Notes under the pieces: generated by a model | What the model was told of the DNA's origin: nothing | Databases searched by the model: none | Seen by the model: only the letters and a program-made list of their open reading frames with translations | Position numbers and translations under genes: made by a program | Virus record (IMG/VR): IMGVR_UViG_3300005544_000021 | Strand: one strand, 5' to 3' | Length of the DNA: 48,829 nt | Source of the DNA: a virus | Taxonomy: Duplodnaviria > Heunggongvirae > Uroviricota > Caudoviricetes | Shown here: positions 42,792-48,829 of the stretch, piece by piece | Layout of the letters: each line of letters opens with the position of its first letter | Position numbering within the stretch: position 1 is the stretch's first letter

Positions 42792-43658
42792 TTATCCTTT
42801 TCTTCTACTCGTTAAATGTTTGATTCCATCATGAACTAAATGTCCAACCCAATTTACTATTCTGGAGGACGTAATAATACGAGGTTGCTTAGCTATATGT
42901 ATCTTGGCTCCCGGATGTAAAATGAATTCATATTCATCTGGGTGTTCCGACACATGACTTACATAAGCCCCATGTGAACCCTTGGGAACATGAATTGTCA
43001 CATAATGACGGTTTTCTTCTTCATCTTCCTTGGAAAAATCTCGGGCAATATCTCGCCTTAATGACGTACTGGTAAAGGCGGGAAGATGAATATGAAAATG
43101 TCCGTGTTTATTTTCTCCGGGAGCCTGATACATTTGCTTAATTGCCGAACGAGTCATTCCCGTGTGAACGGCAAAATCGTGGGGTGTTTCATGCTGAACC
43201 AGGGCTTCTTTTATTCTTCCAGGAATCTTTGAATCATCATAACGATTAGAGTGCCCCATGATGTGTTTATTTATTGGGACGCTTGAACCCCCAGTATACT
43301 GTTTCAGGGCTTCCTTATGATCATCATTAAATGTATAATGGTTAGTTAATTTATTATGAAGTCTATTAACATAGTCAGGTTTAGTATTCTTATCAAGTTT
43401 AAAATCATCAACATGAACAATTTGGGCTTTTATTAGTTTGGGTTTATTTGGGTTAACATGCATATATTTCTTTTGGGCCAGAATATTCTTTAACGCATTT
43501 TTATGTTTCTGGGGATCATCCAGAGAAGCATGACCATATACCCCCCCAAATTGATCCACAAATCTAGAAACCAATCCTTCCGAAACATCTCCATTTTTTC
43601 CGATAAAACCTAGAAACATTTTCTGATATTTTGGGACGATATGTCTTAGTTTCTTCAT
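42792..43658 (-). CDS. Alt/VIP2-like NAD-dependent ADP-ribosyltransferase
   Basis: ALKQYTGGS..INKH, FTSTSL, TIHVPKGSHGAYV, DEYEFILHPG (STS and ExE motifs); MKKLRHIV leader. Confidence 0.85.
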   Translation of the reverse strand: MKKLRHIVPKYQKMFLGFIGKNGDVSEGLVSRFVDQFGGVYGHASLDDPQKHKNALKNILAQKKYMHVNPNKPKLIKAQIVHVDDFKLDKNTKPDYVNRLHNKLTNHYTFNDDHKEALKQYTGGSSVPINKHIMGHSNRYDDSKIPGRIKEALVQHETPHDFAVHTGMTRSAIKQMYQAPGENKHGHFHIHLPAFTSTSLRRDIARDFSKEDEEENRHYVTIHVPKGSHGAYVSHVSEHPDEYEFILHPGAKIHIAKQPRIITSSRIVNWVGHLVHDGIKHLTSRRKG

Positions 43659-46873: not shown

Positions 46874-46906
46874 GCCCCAAGGGAAACTATCCTGCTCCCT
46901 TGGGGC
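46874..46906. other. GC-rich hairpin downstream of the tRNA-like RNAs (processing/stability element or terminator)
   Basis: GCCCCAAGGGA / TCCCTTGGGGC, perfect 11-bp stem with 11-nt loop; no clear U-tract. Confidence 0.5.
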
Positions 46907-46922
46907 GATGCCATGACTTTAC

Positions 46923-47065
46923 CCGGTTCTCGGCATTTAATGTATAACCTGAGGTTTATGTCGGACGCTCTACCGCTAAGCTACCTCGCCATAATATGGA
47001 GGCGAGGATAGGATTTGAACCTATGCTTTCCGAATAGGGGGTTACACACCTTGATAGAACCAGCA
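46923..47065 (-). ncRNA. Circularly permuted tRNA-like RNA (YrlA/Y-RNA architecture), unit 2, opened at the anticodon loop
   Basis: 5'-3' order: TCGGA, AAGC, T arm ATAGG-TTCAAAT-CCTAT, CCTCGCC-T-CCA, 6-nt linker, GGCGAGG, D arm GCTT-AGCGGTA-GAGC, TCCGA. Flanks pair: TGTGTAACC/GGTTATACA and CTGGTTCT/AGAACCGG. Confidence 0.8.
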
Positions 47066-47066
47066 T

Positions 47067-47255
47067 GGCAATACTCAAGTTGGGGTGAATAGTCTGAGTC
47101 TGAGCGAGCCAAACATCTCAAGGATGTTTCCGTCTACCGTTCCGGCATCCCCGCATCAGTTTTAGACACCAAAAAAGTATCTAAAATTGGTACGGGGAAA
47201 GGGATTCGAACCCTTACGACTCGTTTTTTAGATTCACCACAAGCTTGAGATTTCC
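47067..47255 (-). ncRNA. Circularly permuted tRNA-like RNA (YrlA/Y-RNA-like), unit 1, class II tRNA-like, opened at the variable arm
   Basis: Order: CGAGTC, T arm AAGGG-TTCGAAT-CCCTT, TCCCCGT-A-CCA, 33-nt hairpin linker, GCGGGGA, D arm CCG-GAACGGTAGA-CGG, hairpin AAACATC-CTTGA-GATGTTT, GGCTCG. Ends pair: GGTGAAT/ATTCACC and CTCAAG/CTTGAG. Confidence 0.75.
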
Positions 47256-47258
47256 GTT

Positions 47259-47996
47259 TCAATCCCCCAGCAGATAATCAAAGATGGCTGATCCGACATT
47301 GGGGGTTTGAATTTCTTCATGGACGTTGGCTTCTTCCCGAGCCTCTTTTATGGCTCGTAATAGAATTTCAACTCGTTCCGAGATAGCTTGCTTTTCGGTT
47401 TTTGGTATTGCTCCACTTTGTTTAACCTGTTCCCAAAACCCCGCTATTACATCTTCGGTTATTAGTTGGGTTTGGGCTGGATGTTCGGGGGTCGCGGGAA
47501 ACAAAACAATAGGCTTTTGTACCTTGCGAGTCCGATGTGTTTTCGTTGTCTCGGCCTTGAACAAGCCAGAGTTTTCGTCTTTACTCCAATTATCTCCCTC
47601 ATCTAGAATTGGAAGATTTCCCACAAAGGTACGCAAATCAGTTAGTTGTTTCTCCAAAAACAACAAGAAACTAACGGGAGCATTTGGGATAATAACCTTA
47701 TCATCAATTTTAACAGAAGCATTAGCCGCACAATTAGTCCAATCTTTGCGGGCCGTAACTTCCATTAACTCACTAATAATTCGTTCCGCCCGAGATAATA
47801 CTTCGGCGGCAGAAAACTGAACCCGCTTTTTTTCCGCCGGCAAATCTTCTCCCTCATCATCTCTTTTCAGATATGTTTTCTGAAAACCATTAAATAATTC
47901 TGGTTTCTGAATCGCCTTATTAAGATCGGTCAATTCCCCATAGACTCGGGATTTGATTCCTTTCTCAATTGCGATGATCTGATTGAGCTTAGCCAC
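47259..47996 (-). CDS. Uncharacterised conserved-looking protein (MAKLNQIIAIEKG...), 245 aa, directly upstream of the tRNA-like RNAs
   Basis: GTG start with AAGGAG RBS; helical N/C termini flanking a beta-hairpin region (THRTRKVQKPIVLFPATPEHPAQTQL). Confidence 0.85.
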   Translation of the reverse strand: MAKLNQIIAIEKGIKSRVYGELTDLNKAIQKPELFNGFQKTYLKRDDEGEDLPAEKKRVQFSAAEVLSRAERIISELMEVTARKDWTNCAANASVKIDDKVIIPNAPVSFLLFLEKQLTDLRTFVGNLPILDEGDNWSKDENSGLFKAETTKTHRTRKVQKPIVLFPATPEHPAQTQLITEDVIAGFWEQVKQSGAIPKTEKQAISERVEILLRAIKEAREEANVHEEIQTPNVGSAIFDYLLGD

Positions 47997-48151: not shown

Positions 48152-48268
48152 ATGATTATGATTCTCGGAATGATAATAGGGTTTTGTTTTCTGGTATTAA
48201 TAATAGAATATGTCCGAGAAGTAATAGCTGATAGAAACTTTAACGCAAGGAAGACATGGTTCTCATAG
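48152..48268 (+). CDS. 38-aa membrane peptide (not in track)
   Basis: MIMILGMIIGFCFLVLIIEYVREVIADRNFNARKTWFS; GGAGAG RBS; possible TTGCCT-N16-TATGAT promoter at 48089-48116. Confidence 0.45.
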   Translation: MIMILGMIIGFCFLVLIIEYVREVIADRNFNARKTWFS

Positions 48269-48541
48269 AAAGGATCGCTCGCACGCAAGGTTCGGTTCTC
48301 ATTCATGGCCTTGGCTCGCAACTCATGAGTGGTTCTCATGACATTACGTGGTTCGCACGGCTGATAGGGTTCTCAGAGCTTCCTTGGCTCGCACGGGATC
48401 ATTCTGGTTCTCAACCTTCCGATGGCTCGCAAGCGAGTGGTGGTTCTCATGTGGTCAATGGCTCGCATGGGATCATTCTGGTTCTCAACCTTCCGATGGC
48501 TCTTCCACGCACGTGGATGTGGTTCTCAACCTTTCCTTGGC
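48257..48541. repeat. Tandem array of ~36-38 nt units with alternating boxes TGGTTCTCA and TGGCTCGCA
   Basis: GGTTCTC starts at 48258, 48294, 48331, 48368, 48406, 48442, 48480 and 48521, with a (G)GCTCGCA-type box between each pair. Confidence 0.9.
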
Positions 48542-48545
48542 TTTT

Positions 48546-48716
48546 TTAAAGTTTTTTGCATAACCAAGAATACGAATCAGTCTTCATTTTTAAGACCAAT
48601 TCAGCTCCCTTTTTTTCACACAGATCAAACGTTTCGTGTTTCGTTACTTCTGCTATTATAGGGGCCGGAAGTCCTGTTGCAGAGTTTATTGCAATCACAA
48701 ACACAAGAAGATACAT
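48546..48716 (-). CDS. 56-aa small protein with hydrophobic N-terminus and two Cys, inside the repeat array; not in track
   Basis: MYLLVFVIAINSATGLPAPIIAEVTKHETFDLCEKKGAELVLKMKTDSYSWLCKKL; AAGGAG RBS. Confidence 0.65.
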   Translation of the reverse strand: MYLLVFVIAINSATGLPAPIIAEVTKHETFDLCEKKGAELVLKMKTDSYSWLCKKL

Positions 48717-48752
48717 GTCCGTTTCTCCTTTTTTTTCCGTCGCATCGGATTA

Positions 48753-48829
48753 TGGTTCTCATCACGACACTGGCTCGCAATGCTACTTATGGTTCTCATA
48801 TCTGTTTTGGCTCGCAAGCGGTATCTAGT
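48753..48829. repeat. Continuation of the TGGTTCTCA/TGGCTCGCA array, running to the window edge
   Basis: GGTTCTC at 48754 and 48791; GCTCGCA at 48773 and 48810. Confidence 0.85.

What the first reader, a model, noticed from the sequence alone, without database searches (positions are those of the whole stretch)
47067..47255. Unit 1 is permuted at a different point (variable arm) and keeps a pseudo-anticodon arm
Seen: after a Leu/Ser-like D arm (CCG-GAACGGTAGA-CGG) comes a hairpin AAACATC-CTTGA-GATGTTT. The end-to-end stem (GGCTCG/CGAGTC, ATTCACC/GGTGAAT, CTTGAG/CTCAAG with a bulged C) then sits where a class II variable arm would be. The anticodon-like loop is non-canonical (5 nt, or 7 nt with C33). 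The acceptor linker is itself a hairpin (TTTTAGATAC/GTGTCTAAAA). Known: YrlA RNAs, as I recall them, replace the anticodon arm with the terminal stem. Inference: this is a possibly undescribed class-II-tRNA-derived variant with four arms, which fits a decoy role better than a translation role.
Basis: partly seen in the sequence, partly recalled or inferred. Interest (0 to 1): 0.72.

Follow-up and report, generated by a model that had tools for sequence, protein, structure and literature searches.

The report
Leu-tRNA-shaped phage RNA opened at variable arm
The flagged stretch is a real, conserved phage RNA domain shaped like a long-armed (leucine-type) tRNA whose ends sit where the extra arm should be. 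It cannot decode, and it belongs to a widespread RNA family that follows one unknown protein gene (DUF7873) rather than Ro60.

Summary
Observation confirmed. On the minus strand, 47255..47067 folds as described (MFE -69.3 kcal/mol, z -5.6). A long bulged rod ends in a five-way junction carrying a T arm, a capped 7-bp acceptor stem that keeps A-CCA, a 3-bp class II D arm and a short hairpin directly after the D arm.

Relatives keep both contested helices with unrelated sequences: all 6 pairs of each helix show changes on both sides, and 91-94% of cells pair. If the rod is closed and the acceptor opened in silico, ARAGORN reads 22 of 27 relatives as 83-99 nt tRNAs. It places the hairpin as the anticodon arm and the rod as the variable arm. 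Their "anticodons" all differ and many loops are tetraloops, so the RNA does not decode and is a poor anticodon-nuclease decoy.

Unit 1 is the first of two tRNA-like heads in a ~390-nt RNA immediately downstream of a DUF7873 gene. This cassette occurs in most of 66 viral and 80 bacterial DUF7873 loci examined. I found no Ro60 gene in this contig or in a complete related phage genome, and the Ro60 motif was in 1 of 58 relatives. Function is inferred.

This scan has reported the same module on other DNA. I found it in no paper and it reaches the threshold of no Rfam family.

The parts
47259..47996 (-). DUF7873 (PF25283) gene, 245 aa. Its stop codon lies 9 nt before the first paired base of the RNA rod.
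   Evidence: Pfam E 9.6e-92. A DUF7873 gene sits immediately upstream of the RNA in L003, L012, L017 and L027, and the cassette is present in most of 66 viral loci.
47232..47249 (-). 5' strand of the terminal rod: CTCAAG, bulged C47243, TTG, a T mismatch, then GGTGAAT.
   Evidence: Fold. The outer 6 bp appear in the RNAalifold consensus of 16 relatives; pair 20/204 reads GC:6 AU:5 GU:3.
47218..47223 (-). P3 5' strand (CGAGTC). This helix closes the junction and sits in the variable-arm position. GT 47217-47216 follows, with T47216 a candidate U48.
   Evidence: 6 of 6 pairs change on both sides; 93.7% of cells pair.
47199..47215 (-). T arm: AAGGG, loop TTCGAAT, CCCTT.
47188..47198 (-). Acceptor 3' strand TCCCCGT, then A73-CCA.
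   Evidence: 7 bp with many compensatory changes. Among relatives with a class II-like D arm, A occupies this position in 28 of 31 and CCA follows in 20 of 31.
47160..47186 (-). Lineage-specific hairpin that caps the acceptor stem (10 bp, loop TTTTTTG).
   Evidence: Fold. Most relatives have a 5-16 nt linker instead.
47148..47154 (-). Acceptor 5' strand GCGGGGA. The predicted RNase P site lies between T47155 and G47154.
   Evidence: Pairing. The cleavage site is an inference from M. smegmatis YrlA (PMC4201824).
47130..47147 (-). U8-G9 plus a class II (Leu/Ser-type) D arm: 3-bp stem and a 10-nt loop.
   Evidence: Apart from the tRNAs that the TGCCGGAAC search pattern itself had selected, the closest real phage tRNAs in this region are mostly tRNA-Leu.
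47111..47129 (-). Hairpin in the anticodon-arm position: 7 bp with loop CTTGA, or 6 bp with the 7-nt loop CCTTGAG.
   Evidence: 6 of 6 pairs change on both sides; 90.8% of cells pair. Such a hairpin is found in 21 of 28 class II-type relatives, against 14% of shuffles.
47105..47110 (-). P3 3' strand (GGCTCG).
47074..47104 (-). 3' strand of the rod: a conserved internal-loop region, then ATTCACC, C, CAA, CTTGAG.
46910..47069 (-). Unit 2: a second permuted tRNA-like head with a class I D arm and T-CCA. Its ends are in the anticodon-stem position on their own rod (GCCATG pairs with CATGGC; GGTTCT pairs with AGAACC).
   Evidence: Weak YrlA match of 24.2 bits, E 0.01, below the gathering score of 69. 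Fold. Present in most relatives.
46875..46905 (-). 3' hairpin with a conserved GGATA loop. It is the likely 3' domain or end of the RNA.
   Evidence: Fold. The same hairpin and loop occur in L003, L101, L102 and L103.

Best explanation
Unit 1 is a non-decoding, circularly permuted mimic of a class II (leucine-type) tRNA.

Its 5' and 3' ends leave the tRNA-like core through the variable-arm position as a long, bulged rod. The acceptor stem is capped, here by an extra hairpin, but still carries A73-CCA. The anticodon arm is reduced to a short structural hairpin.

The unit is the first of two tRNA-shaped heads of a ~390-nt structured RNA. That RNA is probably transcribed together with the DUF7873 gene just upstream.

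Shown: the architecture, its conservation, and the linkage to DUF7873.

Inferred: the RNA works like a Y RNA but without Ro60. It would be a scaffold that displays tRNA elbows and acceptor ends to tRNA-handling proteins, with DUF7873 as the likely bound partner, in tRNA or RNA repair, quality control or counter-defence during infection.
For: Structure:
- The unconstrained fold gives z -5.58 for unit 1 and z -6.26 for the whole 389-nt RNA, which forms three domains.
- Covariation supports the acceptor, T arm, D stem and outer rod, and P3 and the hairpin.
- After in-silico un-permutation, ARAGORN of 27 relatives as 83-99 nt tRNAs with a long variable arm. The window copy comes out as a 90-nt 'tRNA-Gln(ttg)' with a 6-bp variable arm.

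Non-decoding:
- The native sequence gives no tRNA call.
- The pseudo-anticodons differ in every relative, and many loops have 4, 5 or 8 nt.

Class II link:
- Viral relatives: of those with a class II-like D arm, 20 have the hairpin and 7 do not; of those with a class I-like D arm, 4 have it and 17 do not.
- Bacterial relatives with a class II-like D arm: 13 have the hairpin in the anticodon position, 6 have one upstream of the T arm, 3 have neither. With a class I-like D arm the counts are 2, 2 and 47.
- The spacer before the T arm is about 2 nt with the hairpin and about 5 nt without.

Cassette:
- Of 66 viral DUF7873 loci, 51 have at least two modules within 800 nt downstream, 11 have one and 4 have none.
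- Of 80 bacterial loci, 74 have at least one module.
- The two closest relatives place RtcB RNA ligase right after the cassette.

No Ro60: no TROVE gene in the window's contig or in a complete related phage.
Against: - There are no expression, end-mapping or binding data.
- DUF7873 has no recognisable RNA-binding fold or solved relative. Its role as partner rests on gene order alone.
- The hairpin is missing in about a quarter of class II-type relatives, so it is not essential to the family.
- RtcB lies nearby in only 3 of 105 loci.
- The covariation alignment was fitted to the model.
- The window's phage contig is only 32% complete, so a distant Ro60 gene cannot be excluded for this phage. 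A host-encoded Ro60 cannot be excluded either.
Confidence: 0.6

Rival explanations
1. It is an ordinary Ro60-dependent Y RNA of the YrlA family. Host (or an unseen phage) Ro60 binds the bulged rod, and the tRNA-like head tethers an effector such as PNPase.
For: - Overall YrlA-like layout. Unit 2 gives a weak YrlA match of 24.2 bits, E 0.01.
- Tandem Y RNAs and an RtcB neighbourhood are known for Salmonella rsr-yrlBA-rtcBA (PMC4201824, PMC7790460). RtcB follows the cassette in L101 and L102.
Against: - No TROVE gene in the contig or in a complete 103.9-kb relative.
- The motif GNCGAAN0-1G is in 1 of 58 module-1 5' strands.
- No Rfam match reaches the gathering score.
- The bulged base is not conserved.
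- The RNA tracks DUF7873 instead.
Confidence: 0.1
2. It is a decoy substrate for host anticodon nucleases or other tRNA-targeting defences, soaking up the enzyme in place of real tRNAs.
For: - Close tRNA shape with an arm in the anticodon position.
- Phage setting. Two relatives (L102, L103) carry a 5-bp stem with a Met-like CUCAUAA or CUCAUCA loop.
Against: - Loop size and sequence are not conserved. Many relatives have GNRA or UUCG tetraloops or 8-nt loops, and a quarter lack the hairpin. Anticodon nucleases read specific loops (established knowledge, not tested here).
- The same cassette is chromosomal in many bacterial phyla.
Confidence: 0.1
3. It is a precursor that RNase P and 3' trimming cut at the acceptor cap. 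The result would be a two-piece tRNA-Leu look-alike with a free A73-CCA end that could be recognised, or even charged, by LeuRS or the CCA-adding enzyme.
For: - A 7-bp acceptor followed by A-CCA is strongly enriched: A in 28 of 31 and CCA in 20 of 31 class II-type relatives.
- M. smegmatis YrlA, which also has a 7-bp acceptor, is cut by RNase P and gains CCA in vivo (PMC4201824).
- U8, A14, A15, G18G19, a candidate U48 and A73 are all present. From my own knowledge, these are the E. coli tRNA-Leu identity elements, and LeuRS needs neither the anticodon nor the variable arm.
Against: - CCA is lost in many relatives, including most bacterial ones, so a free CCA end cannot be the family's core function.
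- There are no end-mapping data.
Confidence: 0.12
4. It is a genuine permuted tRNA gene, of the kind found in red algae or resembling two-piece tmRNA genes, that matures into a decoding tRNA.
For: The 3' half precedes the 5' half, and CCA is encoded.
Against: - No conserved anticodon or canonical 7-nt loop.
- The rod that would have to be removed is the most sequence-conserved part.
- A second, anticodon-less head always follows.
Confidence: 0.03

Closest known systems
YrlA (Y RNA-like A; Rfam RF02553; Chen et al. 2014, PMC4201824; structure in 10.1101/312249)
   Same: A circularly permuted tRNA mimic: T arm, loop-capped acceptor stem and D arm, with the RNA ends forming a long bulged stem. 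It occurs in tandem with a second Y-like RNA, sometimes next to RtcB.
   Different: - In YrlA the ends form the anticodon stem, there is no anticodon loop, and any extra stem-loop ('V') lies upstream of the T arm. Here the extra hairpin follows the D arm and the ends occupy the variable-arm position.
- Unit 1 gives no Rfam YrlA match.
- There is no Ro60 gene and no Ro60 motif.
- The neighbouring gene is DUF7873.
Mycobacterium smegmatis YrlA (PMC4201824)
   Same: A 7-bp acceptor stem. That RNA is cut by RNase P in vivo and in vitro and receives CCA, and both halves stay in the particle. This is a precedent for processing at the cap seen here.
   Different: It is bound by Rsr and encoded next to rsr. 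Part of its CCA is added after cleavage, whereas here CCA is encoded. It has no arm in the anticodon position.
Deinococcus radiodurans Yrn1 (PMC4201824)
   Same: A Y RNA modelled with an anticodon-like arm (5-bp stem, 6-nt loop) as well as a T arm.
   Different: Its T and D arms are oriented differently relative to the RNA's 5' end, and the stem-loop between them sits in the anticodon-arm position instead of the acceptor position. No V arm is present. It binds Rsr.
Bacterial class II tRNA-Leu (and tRNA-Ser)
   Same: A 3-bp D stem with a long GGTAGA-type D loop, A73-CCA, a 7-bp acceptor, and a helix in the variable-arm position. ARAGORN accepts the un-permuted form.
   Different: The gene order is permuted, the acceptor is capped, the variable arm is an open ~30-bp rod, and there is no conserved anticodon loop.
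Permuted tRNA genes of Cyanidioschyzon merolae and two-piece (permuted) tmRNA genes (from my own knowledge, not checked here)
   Same: The 3' acceptor/T-arm half is encoded upstream of the 5' half, and the CCA lies internal to the precursor.
   Different: Those are processed into functional tRNA or tmRNA. Here nothing indicates decoding or tagging, and the breakpoint helix is conserved as a structure.

Membership tests
YrlA (RF02553) | Permuted order: T arm, loop-closed acceptor stem, D arm, inside a terminal stem | tested here: met
YrlA (RF02553) | The terminal stem takes the place of the anticodon stem; there is no anticodon loop | tested here: not met
   In unit 1 a hairpin follows the D arm, and only 2 nt separate the terminal helix from the T arm. 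Unit 2 does meet this feature.
YrlA (RF02553) | Score at or above Rfam's gathering threshold (69 bits) | tested here: not met
   No match at gathering score. Unit 2 scores 24.2 bits and unit 1 gives no YrlA match at E up to 10.
YrlA (RF02553) | Ro60-contact motif GNCGAAN0-1G near the 5' end | tested here: not met
   Absent in the window. Found in 1 of 58 relatives.
YrlA (RF02553) | Encoded within about 4 kb of a Ro60/TROVE gene on the same strand | tested here: not met
   No TROVE match in the 57.5-kb contig or in a complete 103.9-kb relative. The window's contig is only 32% complete.
YrlA (RF02553) | Bound by Ro60/Rsr | not testable with these tools
   Needs a pull-down or EMSA.
Class II tRNA (Leu/Ser/Tyr) | 7-bp acceptor, N73-CCA, 3-bp D stem with a long loop, and a helix in the variable-arm position | tested here: met
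   ARAGORN parse of the un-permuted sequence. Covariation.
Class II tRNA (Leu/Ser/Tyr) | Conserved 7-nt anticodon loop with U33 and a fixed anticodon | tested here: not met
   The window has a 5-nt loop, or a 7-nt loop with C33. Relatives have loops of 3-8 nt with unrelated sequences.
Class II tRNA (Leu/Ser/Tyr) | Free 5' and 3' ends at the acceptor stem; detectable as a tRNA gene | tested here: not met
   ARAGORN finds no tRNA in the window. The acceptor is closed by a 37-nt linker.
DUF7873-linked double tRNA-like RNA (found in no paper and at threshold in no Rfam family; noted repeatedly by this scan) | Lies directly downstream of a PF25283 gene on the same strand | tested here: met
DUF7873-linked double tRNA-like RNA (found in no paper and at threshold in no Rfam family; noted repeatedly by this scan) | Two permuted tRNA-like heads on rods, followed by a 3' hairpin | tested here: met
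DUF7873-linked double tRNA-like RNA (found in no paper and at threshold in no Rfam family; noted repeatedly by this scan) | The RNA is bound by the DUF7873 protein | not testable with these tools
   Rests on gene order alone. The available complex predictor does not take RNA.

The most novel reading that the evidence does not exclude
Unit 1 is cut by RNase P at its capped acceptor, between T47155 and G47154, and trimmed back to the encoded A73-CCA. This would produce a two-piece, leucine-tRNA-shaped particle held together by its rod and by DUF7873. The free CCA end would be recognised, possibly charged, by LeuRS or used by RNA-repair enzymes. That would make it a Ro60-independent, tRNA-end-presenting ribonucleoprotein that phages and many bacteria share.
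Probability: 0.12. Interest if true: 0.85.

Novelty: new variant of a known kind. Interest (0 to 1): 0.62.

Why it matters
Bacterial Y RNAs are so far the only known circularly permuted tRNA mimics, and all of them are tied to Ro60. This locus shows a second way of building such a mimic. A class II, leucine-type tRNA core is opened at the variable arm and keeps an anticodon-position arm and an encoded A-CCA.

It belongs to an RNA family that travels with a different, uncharacterised protein across phages and many bacterial phyla.

- It gives a concrete, testable object for two questions: what tRNA-shaped non-coding RNAs do outside translation, and what DUF7873 does.
- The retained CCA and anticodon arm look like the intermediate expected under the published idea that such RNAs arose from tandem tRNA transcripts (10.1101/312249).
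- Both placements of the extra hairpin, after the D arm and upstream of the T arm, coexist in one family. This offers a natural experiment on which helix must project from the tRNA core.

Tried and rejected
- ARAGORN on the native window found no tRNA. Rfam at gathering score found nothing.
- BLAST of the RNA and of 5.8 kb around it against GenBank phages gave only a 59-nt chance-level match in a Pseudomonas phage tRNA region, or nothing.
- MAFFT alignments (A3, A4) could not align the hairpin or P3, because their sequences are unrelated. RNAalifold on A4 therefore missed both. I solved this with a covariance model seeded on the three closest relatives. Its consensus mis-drew the invariant D arm, and that helix shows no covariation, as expected.
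- A fixed-register test of P3, with no per-sequence fitting, gave only 63% pairing against 37-48% at shifted registers. The spacers vary by 1-3 nt.
- TROVE and RtcB searches in the contig and in a complete relative found nothing. RtcB lies next to the cassette in only 3 of 105 loci, so I do not treat it as part of the system.
- For DUF7873: the PDB sequence profile, Foldseek against PDB, VIA-align wide, AFDB clusters and the ESM Atlas gave no informative relative. Helical-bundle matches at Z below 9 are within noise.
- The Burroughs and Aravind 2016 paper and the Sim/Wolin reviews are not held in the library.
- The permuted-tRNA-gene reading and the anticodon-nuclease-decoy reading were considered and ranked low, as set out under the rival explanations.

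Full report
**What is there.** The window comes from a T4-like phage contig (IMG/VR, 57.5 kb, about 32% complete). Baseplate genes lie nearby. The feature is on the minus strand.

- A terminal rod: CTCAAG/CTTGAG, bulged C47243, TTG/CAA, a T-C mismatch, then GGTGAAT/ATTCACC.
- An internal loop.
- A 6-bp helix I call P3 (CGAGTC/GGCTCG).
- A five-way junction carrying four arms:
  - a canonical T arm;
  - a 7-bp acceptor stem whose 3' strand is followed by A-CCA and which is capped by a 10-bp hairpin;
  - U8-G9 and a 3-bp D stem with the loop GAACGGTAGA;
  - a hairpin directly after the D stem, AAACATC-CTTGA-GATGTTT, which abuts the 3' strand of P3.

An unconstrained RNA fold reproduces this structure at -69.3 kcal/mol, z -5.58. 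ARAGORN and Rfam at its curated thresholds see nothing here. With relaxed thresholds only the neighbouring unit 2 gives a weak YrlA match: 24.2 bits, E 0.01, against a gathering score of 69.

**Is it more than chance?** The gene just upstream (47259-47996) is a DUF7873 protein (PF25283, E 9.6e-92). I collected relatives through that protein and through a DNA pattern.
- The same RNA follows the DUF7873 stop codon in L003, L012, L017 and L027, with the gene confirmed in each.
- The hairpin after the D arm sits in the same place in every close relative but has unrelated sequences and loops: GCGG-TCTAAAG-CCGT, GCACTC-GACA-GAGTGT, ACTAGC-CTTG-GTTAGT, GACGC-GTAA-GCGTT, and a UUCG-capped 7-bp stem, among others.
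- MAFFT cannot align such helices. I therefore seeded a covariance model on the three nearest sequences, where RNAalifold already finds P3 and the hairpin, with 5 of 6 hairpin pairs changed on both sides. I then aligned 26 matches to it.
- On that alignment P3 and the hairpin each show changes on both sides at 6 of 6 pairs, with 93.7% and 90.8% of cells paired. Whole-structure pairing is 92.8%, against 39-51% when the partners are slid by 1-3 columns. The alignment is fitted to the model, so these numbers lean towards the structure.
- Two less biased checks agree. A simple hairpin of at least 4 bp starts 0-2 nt after the D arm in 21 of 28 non-identical class II-type relatives, against 14% of shuffles. 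A fixed-register test of P3 peaks at the expected register, 63% against 37-48%.
- The acceptor, T arm, D stem and outer rod are supported by an independent MAFFT/RNAalifold analysis of 16 sequences.

**The topological claim.** The order D arm, hairpin, P3, T arm leaves only one tRNA-consistent assignment: the hairpin is the anticodon arm and P3 is the variable arm. Three results support it.
1. I closed P3 with a tetraloop and opened the acceptor in silico. ARAGORN then called 22 of 27 relatives as tRNAs of 83-99 nt. It drew the window's copy as a 90-nt cloverleaf with a 3-bp D stem, a 6-bp anticodon stem and a 6-bp variable arm.
2. The spacer between P3 and the T arm is about 2 nt, as after a class II variable arm. 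Relatives without the hairpin have about 5 nt there, a normal class I variable loop.
3. The hairpin goes with the D-arm type.
   - Viral relatives: with a class II-like D arm (TGCCGG... or TGGCGAAATTGGTAGACGC), 20 have the hairpin and 7 do not. With a class I-like D arm (TAGCCC...GGTAGAGGC), 4 have it and 17 do not.
   - In 80 bacterial loci, class II-like D arms split 13 (hairpin in the anticodon position), 6 (hairpin upstream of the T arm) and 3 (neither). Class I-like D arms split 2, 2 and 47.

The base at position 73 is A in 28 of 31 class II-type copies, and CCA follows in 20 of 31.

Real phage tRNAs whose D-arm region most resembles these are mostly tRNA-Leu (with A73) and some tRNA-Ser. 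That sample was partly selected by my own search pattern.

A few relatives (L097, L068) instead place a hairpin upstream of the T arm, as published for YrlA. Others (L048, L053, L054, L087) have no hairpin at all. The hairpin is therefore common but dispensable, and both placements coexist in one family.

**What it is not.** It is not a decoding tRNA. The native gene order is permuted, the acceptor is capped, and the pseudo-anticodons differ in every relative. Many loops have 3, 4, 5 or 8 nt. The same variability argues against a decoy for anticodon-specific nucleases. Two close relatives do carry a Met-like CUCAUAA or CUCAUCA loop on a 5-bp stem.

It does not meet the definition of YrlA:
- no Rfam score at threshold;
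- the Ro60-contact motif is absent, being found in 1 of 58 relatives;
- no TROVE gene in the contig or in a complete 103.9-kb relative;
- the ends are not in the anticodon stem.

Only the one- or two-base excess on the 5' strand is.

**Context.** Unit 1 is one domain of a larger RNA. It is followed by a conserved spacer, a second permuted tRNA-like head with its own rod (46910-47069), and a 3' hairpin with a conserved GGATA loop (46875-46905). The 389-nt stretch folds into these three domains with z -6.26.

- Of 66 viral DUF7873 loci with a complete gene, 51 have at least two such heads within 800 nt downstream, 11 have one and 4 have none.
- DUF7873 also occurs in at least 579 stretches of bacterial genomes. 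These span Acidobacteriota, Myxococcota, Planctomycetota, Actinomycetota, Cyanobacteria, Deinococcales, Chloroflexia and others. Of the 80 examined, 74 have at least one head downstream.
- The protein has more than 3,800 relatives, all unnamed. Its model is confident (pLDDT 88.9), combining long helices with a beta sheet, but has no informative structural or sequence relative.
- In the two closest relatives an RtcB RNA ligase gene follows the cassette. This recalls the Salmonella rsr-yrlBA-rtcBA operon. It holds for only 3 of 105 loci, and no RtcB is seen in the window's contig.
- A sigma-70-like promoter lies upstream of the DUF7873 gene, and no intrinsic terminator separates gene and RNA. 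This fits co-transcription.

**How it most likely works.**
- Shown: a conserved, non-decoding, class II tRNA-shaped domain, opened at the variable arm and physically linked to DUF7873.
- Inferred: it acts like a Y RNA without Ro60. It would be a scaffold whose two tRNA-like heads present the elbow and acceptor end to tRNA-handling proteins, with DUF7873 as the probable bound protein, in RNA repair, quality control or counter-defence.
- The strongly enriched 7-bp acceptor plus A-CCA, and the precedent of M. smegmatis YrlA (cut by RNase P, CCA added; PMC4201824), make processing at the cap a serious possibility for this lineage. CCA is lost in many relatives, so it cannot be the core of the family's function.
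- The retained CCA and anticodon arm also fit the published proposal that such RNAs arose from tandem tRNA transcripts (10.1101/312249). [quoted passage not shown]

**Comparison and novelty.** Published YrlA RNAs have their ends in the anticodon stem, 'lack the anticodon loop', and carry an optional V stem-loop upstream of the T arm (PMC4201824; 10.1101/312249). A 2025 study of a Thermus phage Ro60 and a 2026 preprint on new bacterial tRNA mimics do not describe this RNA. 'DUF7873' occurs in no paper of the library.

Earlier notes of this scan report the same DUF7873-linked double tRNA mimic on other DNA, including the variable-arm-opened Leu-like module. My tests here are independent and agree with them. 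One of those notes also records that later checks gave only modest odds to DUF7873 binding the RNA, which I have taken into my confidence.

I class the finding as a new variant of a known kind (permuted tRNA mimics of the Y-RNA type). It is real and well supported structurally. Its function is still inferred.

Noticed in passing
window 48250-48820: An array of at least 10 copies, about 37 nt apart, of a two-part repeat (TGGTTCTCA, 10-12 nt, TGGCTCGCA) upstream of the DUF7873 gene. It looks iteron-like or like a protein-binding array. This part of the window lies beyond the end of the held contig.
   Followed up: partly
window 46875-46905 (-): A long hairpin with the loop GGATA, followed by CACC/CACT. 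It is conserved with compensatory stem changes in L003, L101, L102 and L103. It is probably the 3' domain or terminator of the RNA.
   Followed up: partly
L101:2783-3738 and L102:1464-2573: In the two closest relatives of the window's DUF7873 (80% and 78% identity), an RtcB RNA ligase gene follows the cassette. It is also found in L097, but in no other of 105 loci.
   Followed up: partly
L102:1104-1209 and L103:2129-2230: The anticodon-position hairpin has a 5-bp stem and a 7-nt loop, CUCAUAA or CUCAUCA. This is a canonical Met-type anticodon loop with U33, unlike the window's copy.
   Followed up: partly
L097:3287-3371 and L068:3290-3382: These copies have a class II-type D arm, but the extra hairpin lies upstream of the T arm (the published YrlA 'V' position) instead of after the D arm. 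Both placements therefore exist in one family.
   Followed up: partly
window 42792-43658 (-): A 288-aa ORF with an ADP-ribosyltransferase exoenzyme domain (PF03496, E 4.7e-16) sits among the baseplate genes. It is possibly a virion-associated ADP-ribosyltransferase, as in T4 Alt.
   Followed up: no
tRNA clusters in loci L004-L028: ARAGORN calls a 75-nt 'tRNA-Leu' whose D arm, TAGCCCAATTGGTAGAGGCA, matches the class I-like D arm of module 1 in distant DUF7873 cassettes. The hairpin-less type may therefore also be Leu-derived.
   Followed up: no
window 47256-47271 (-): The end of the DUF7873 ORF reads GGGGATTGAAAC, which gives weak chance-level matches to CRISPR repeat models. There is no repeat array, so this is not a CRISPR.
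   Followed up: yes
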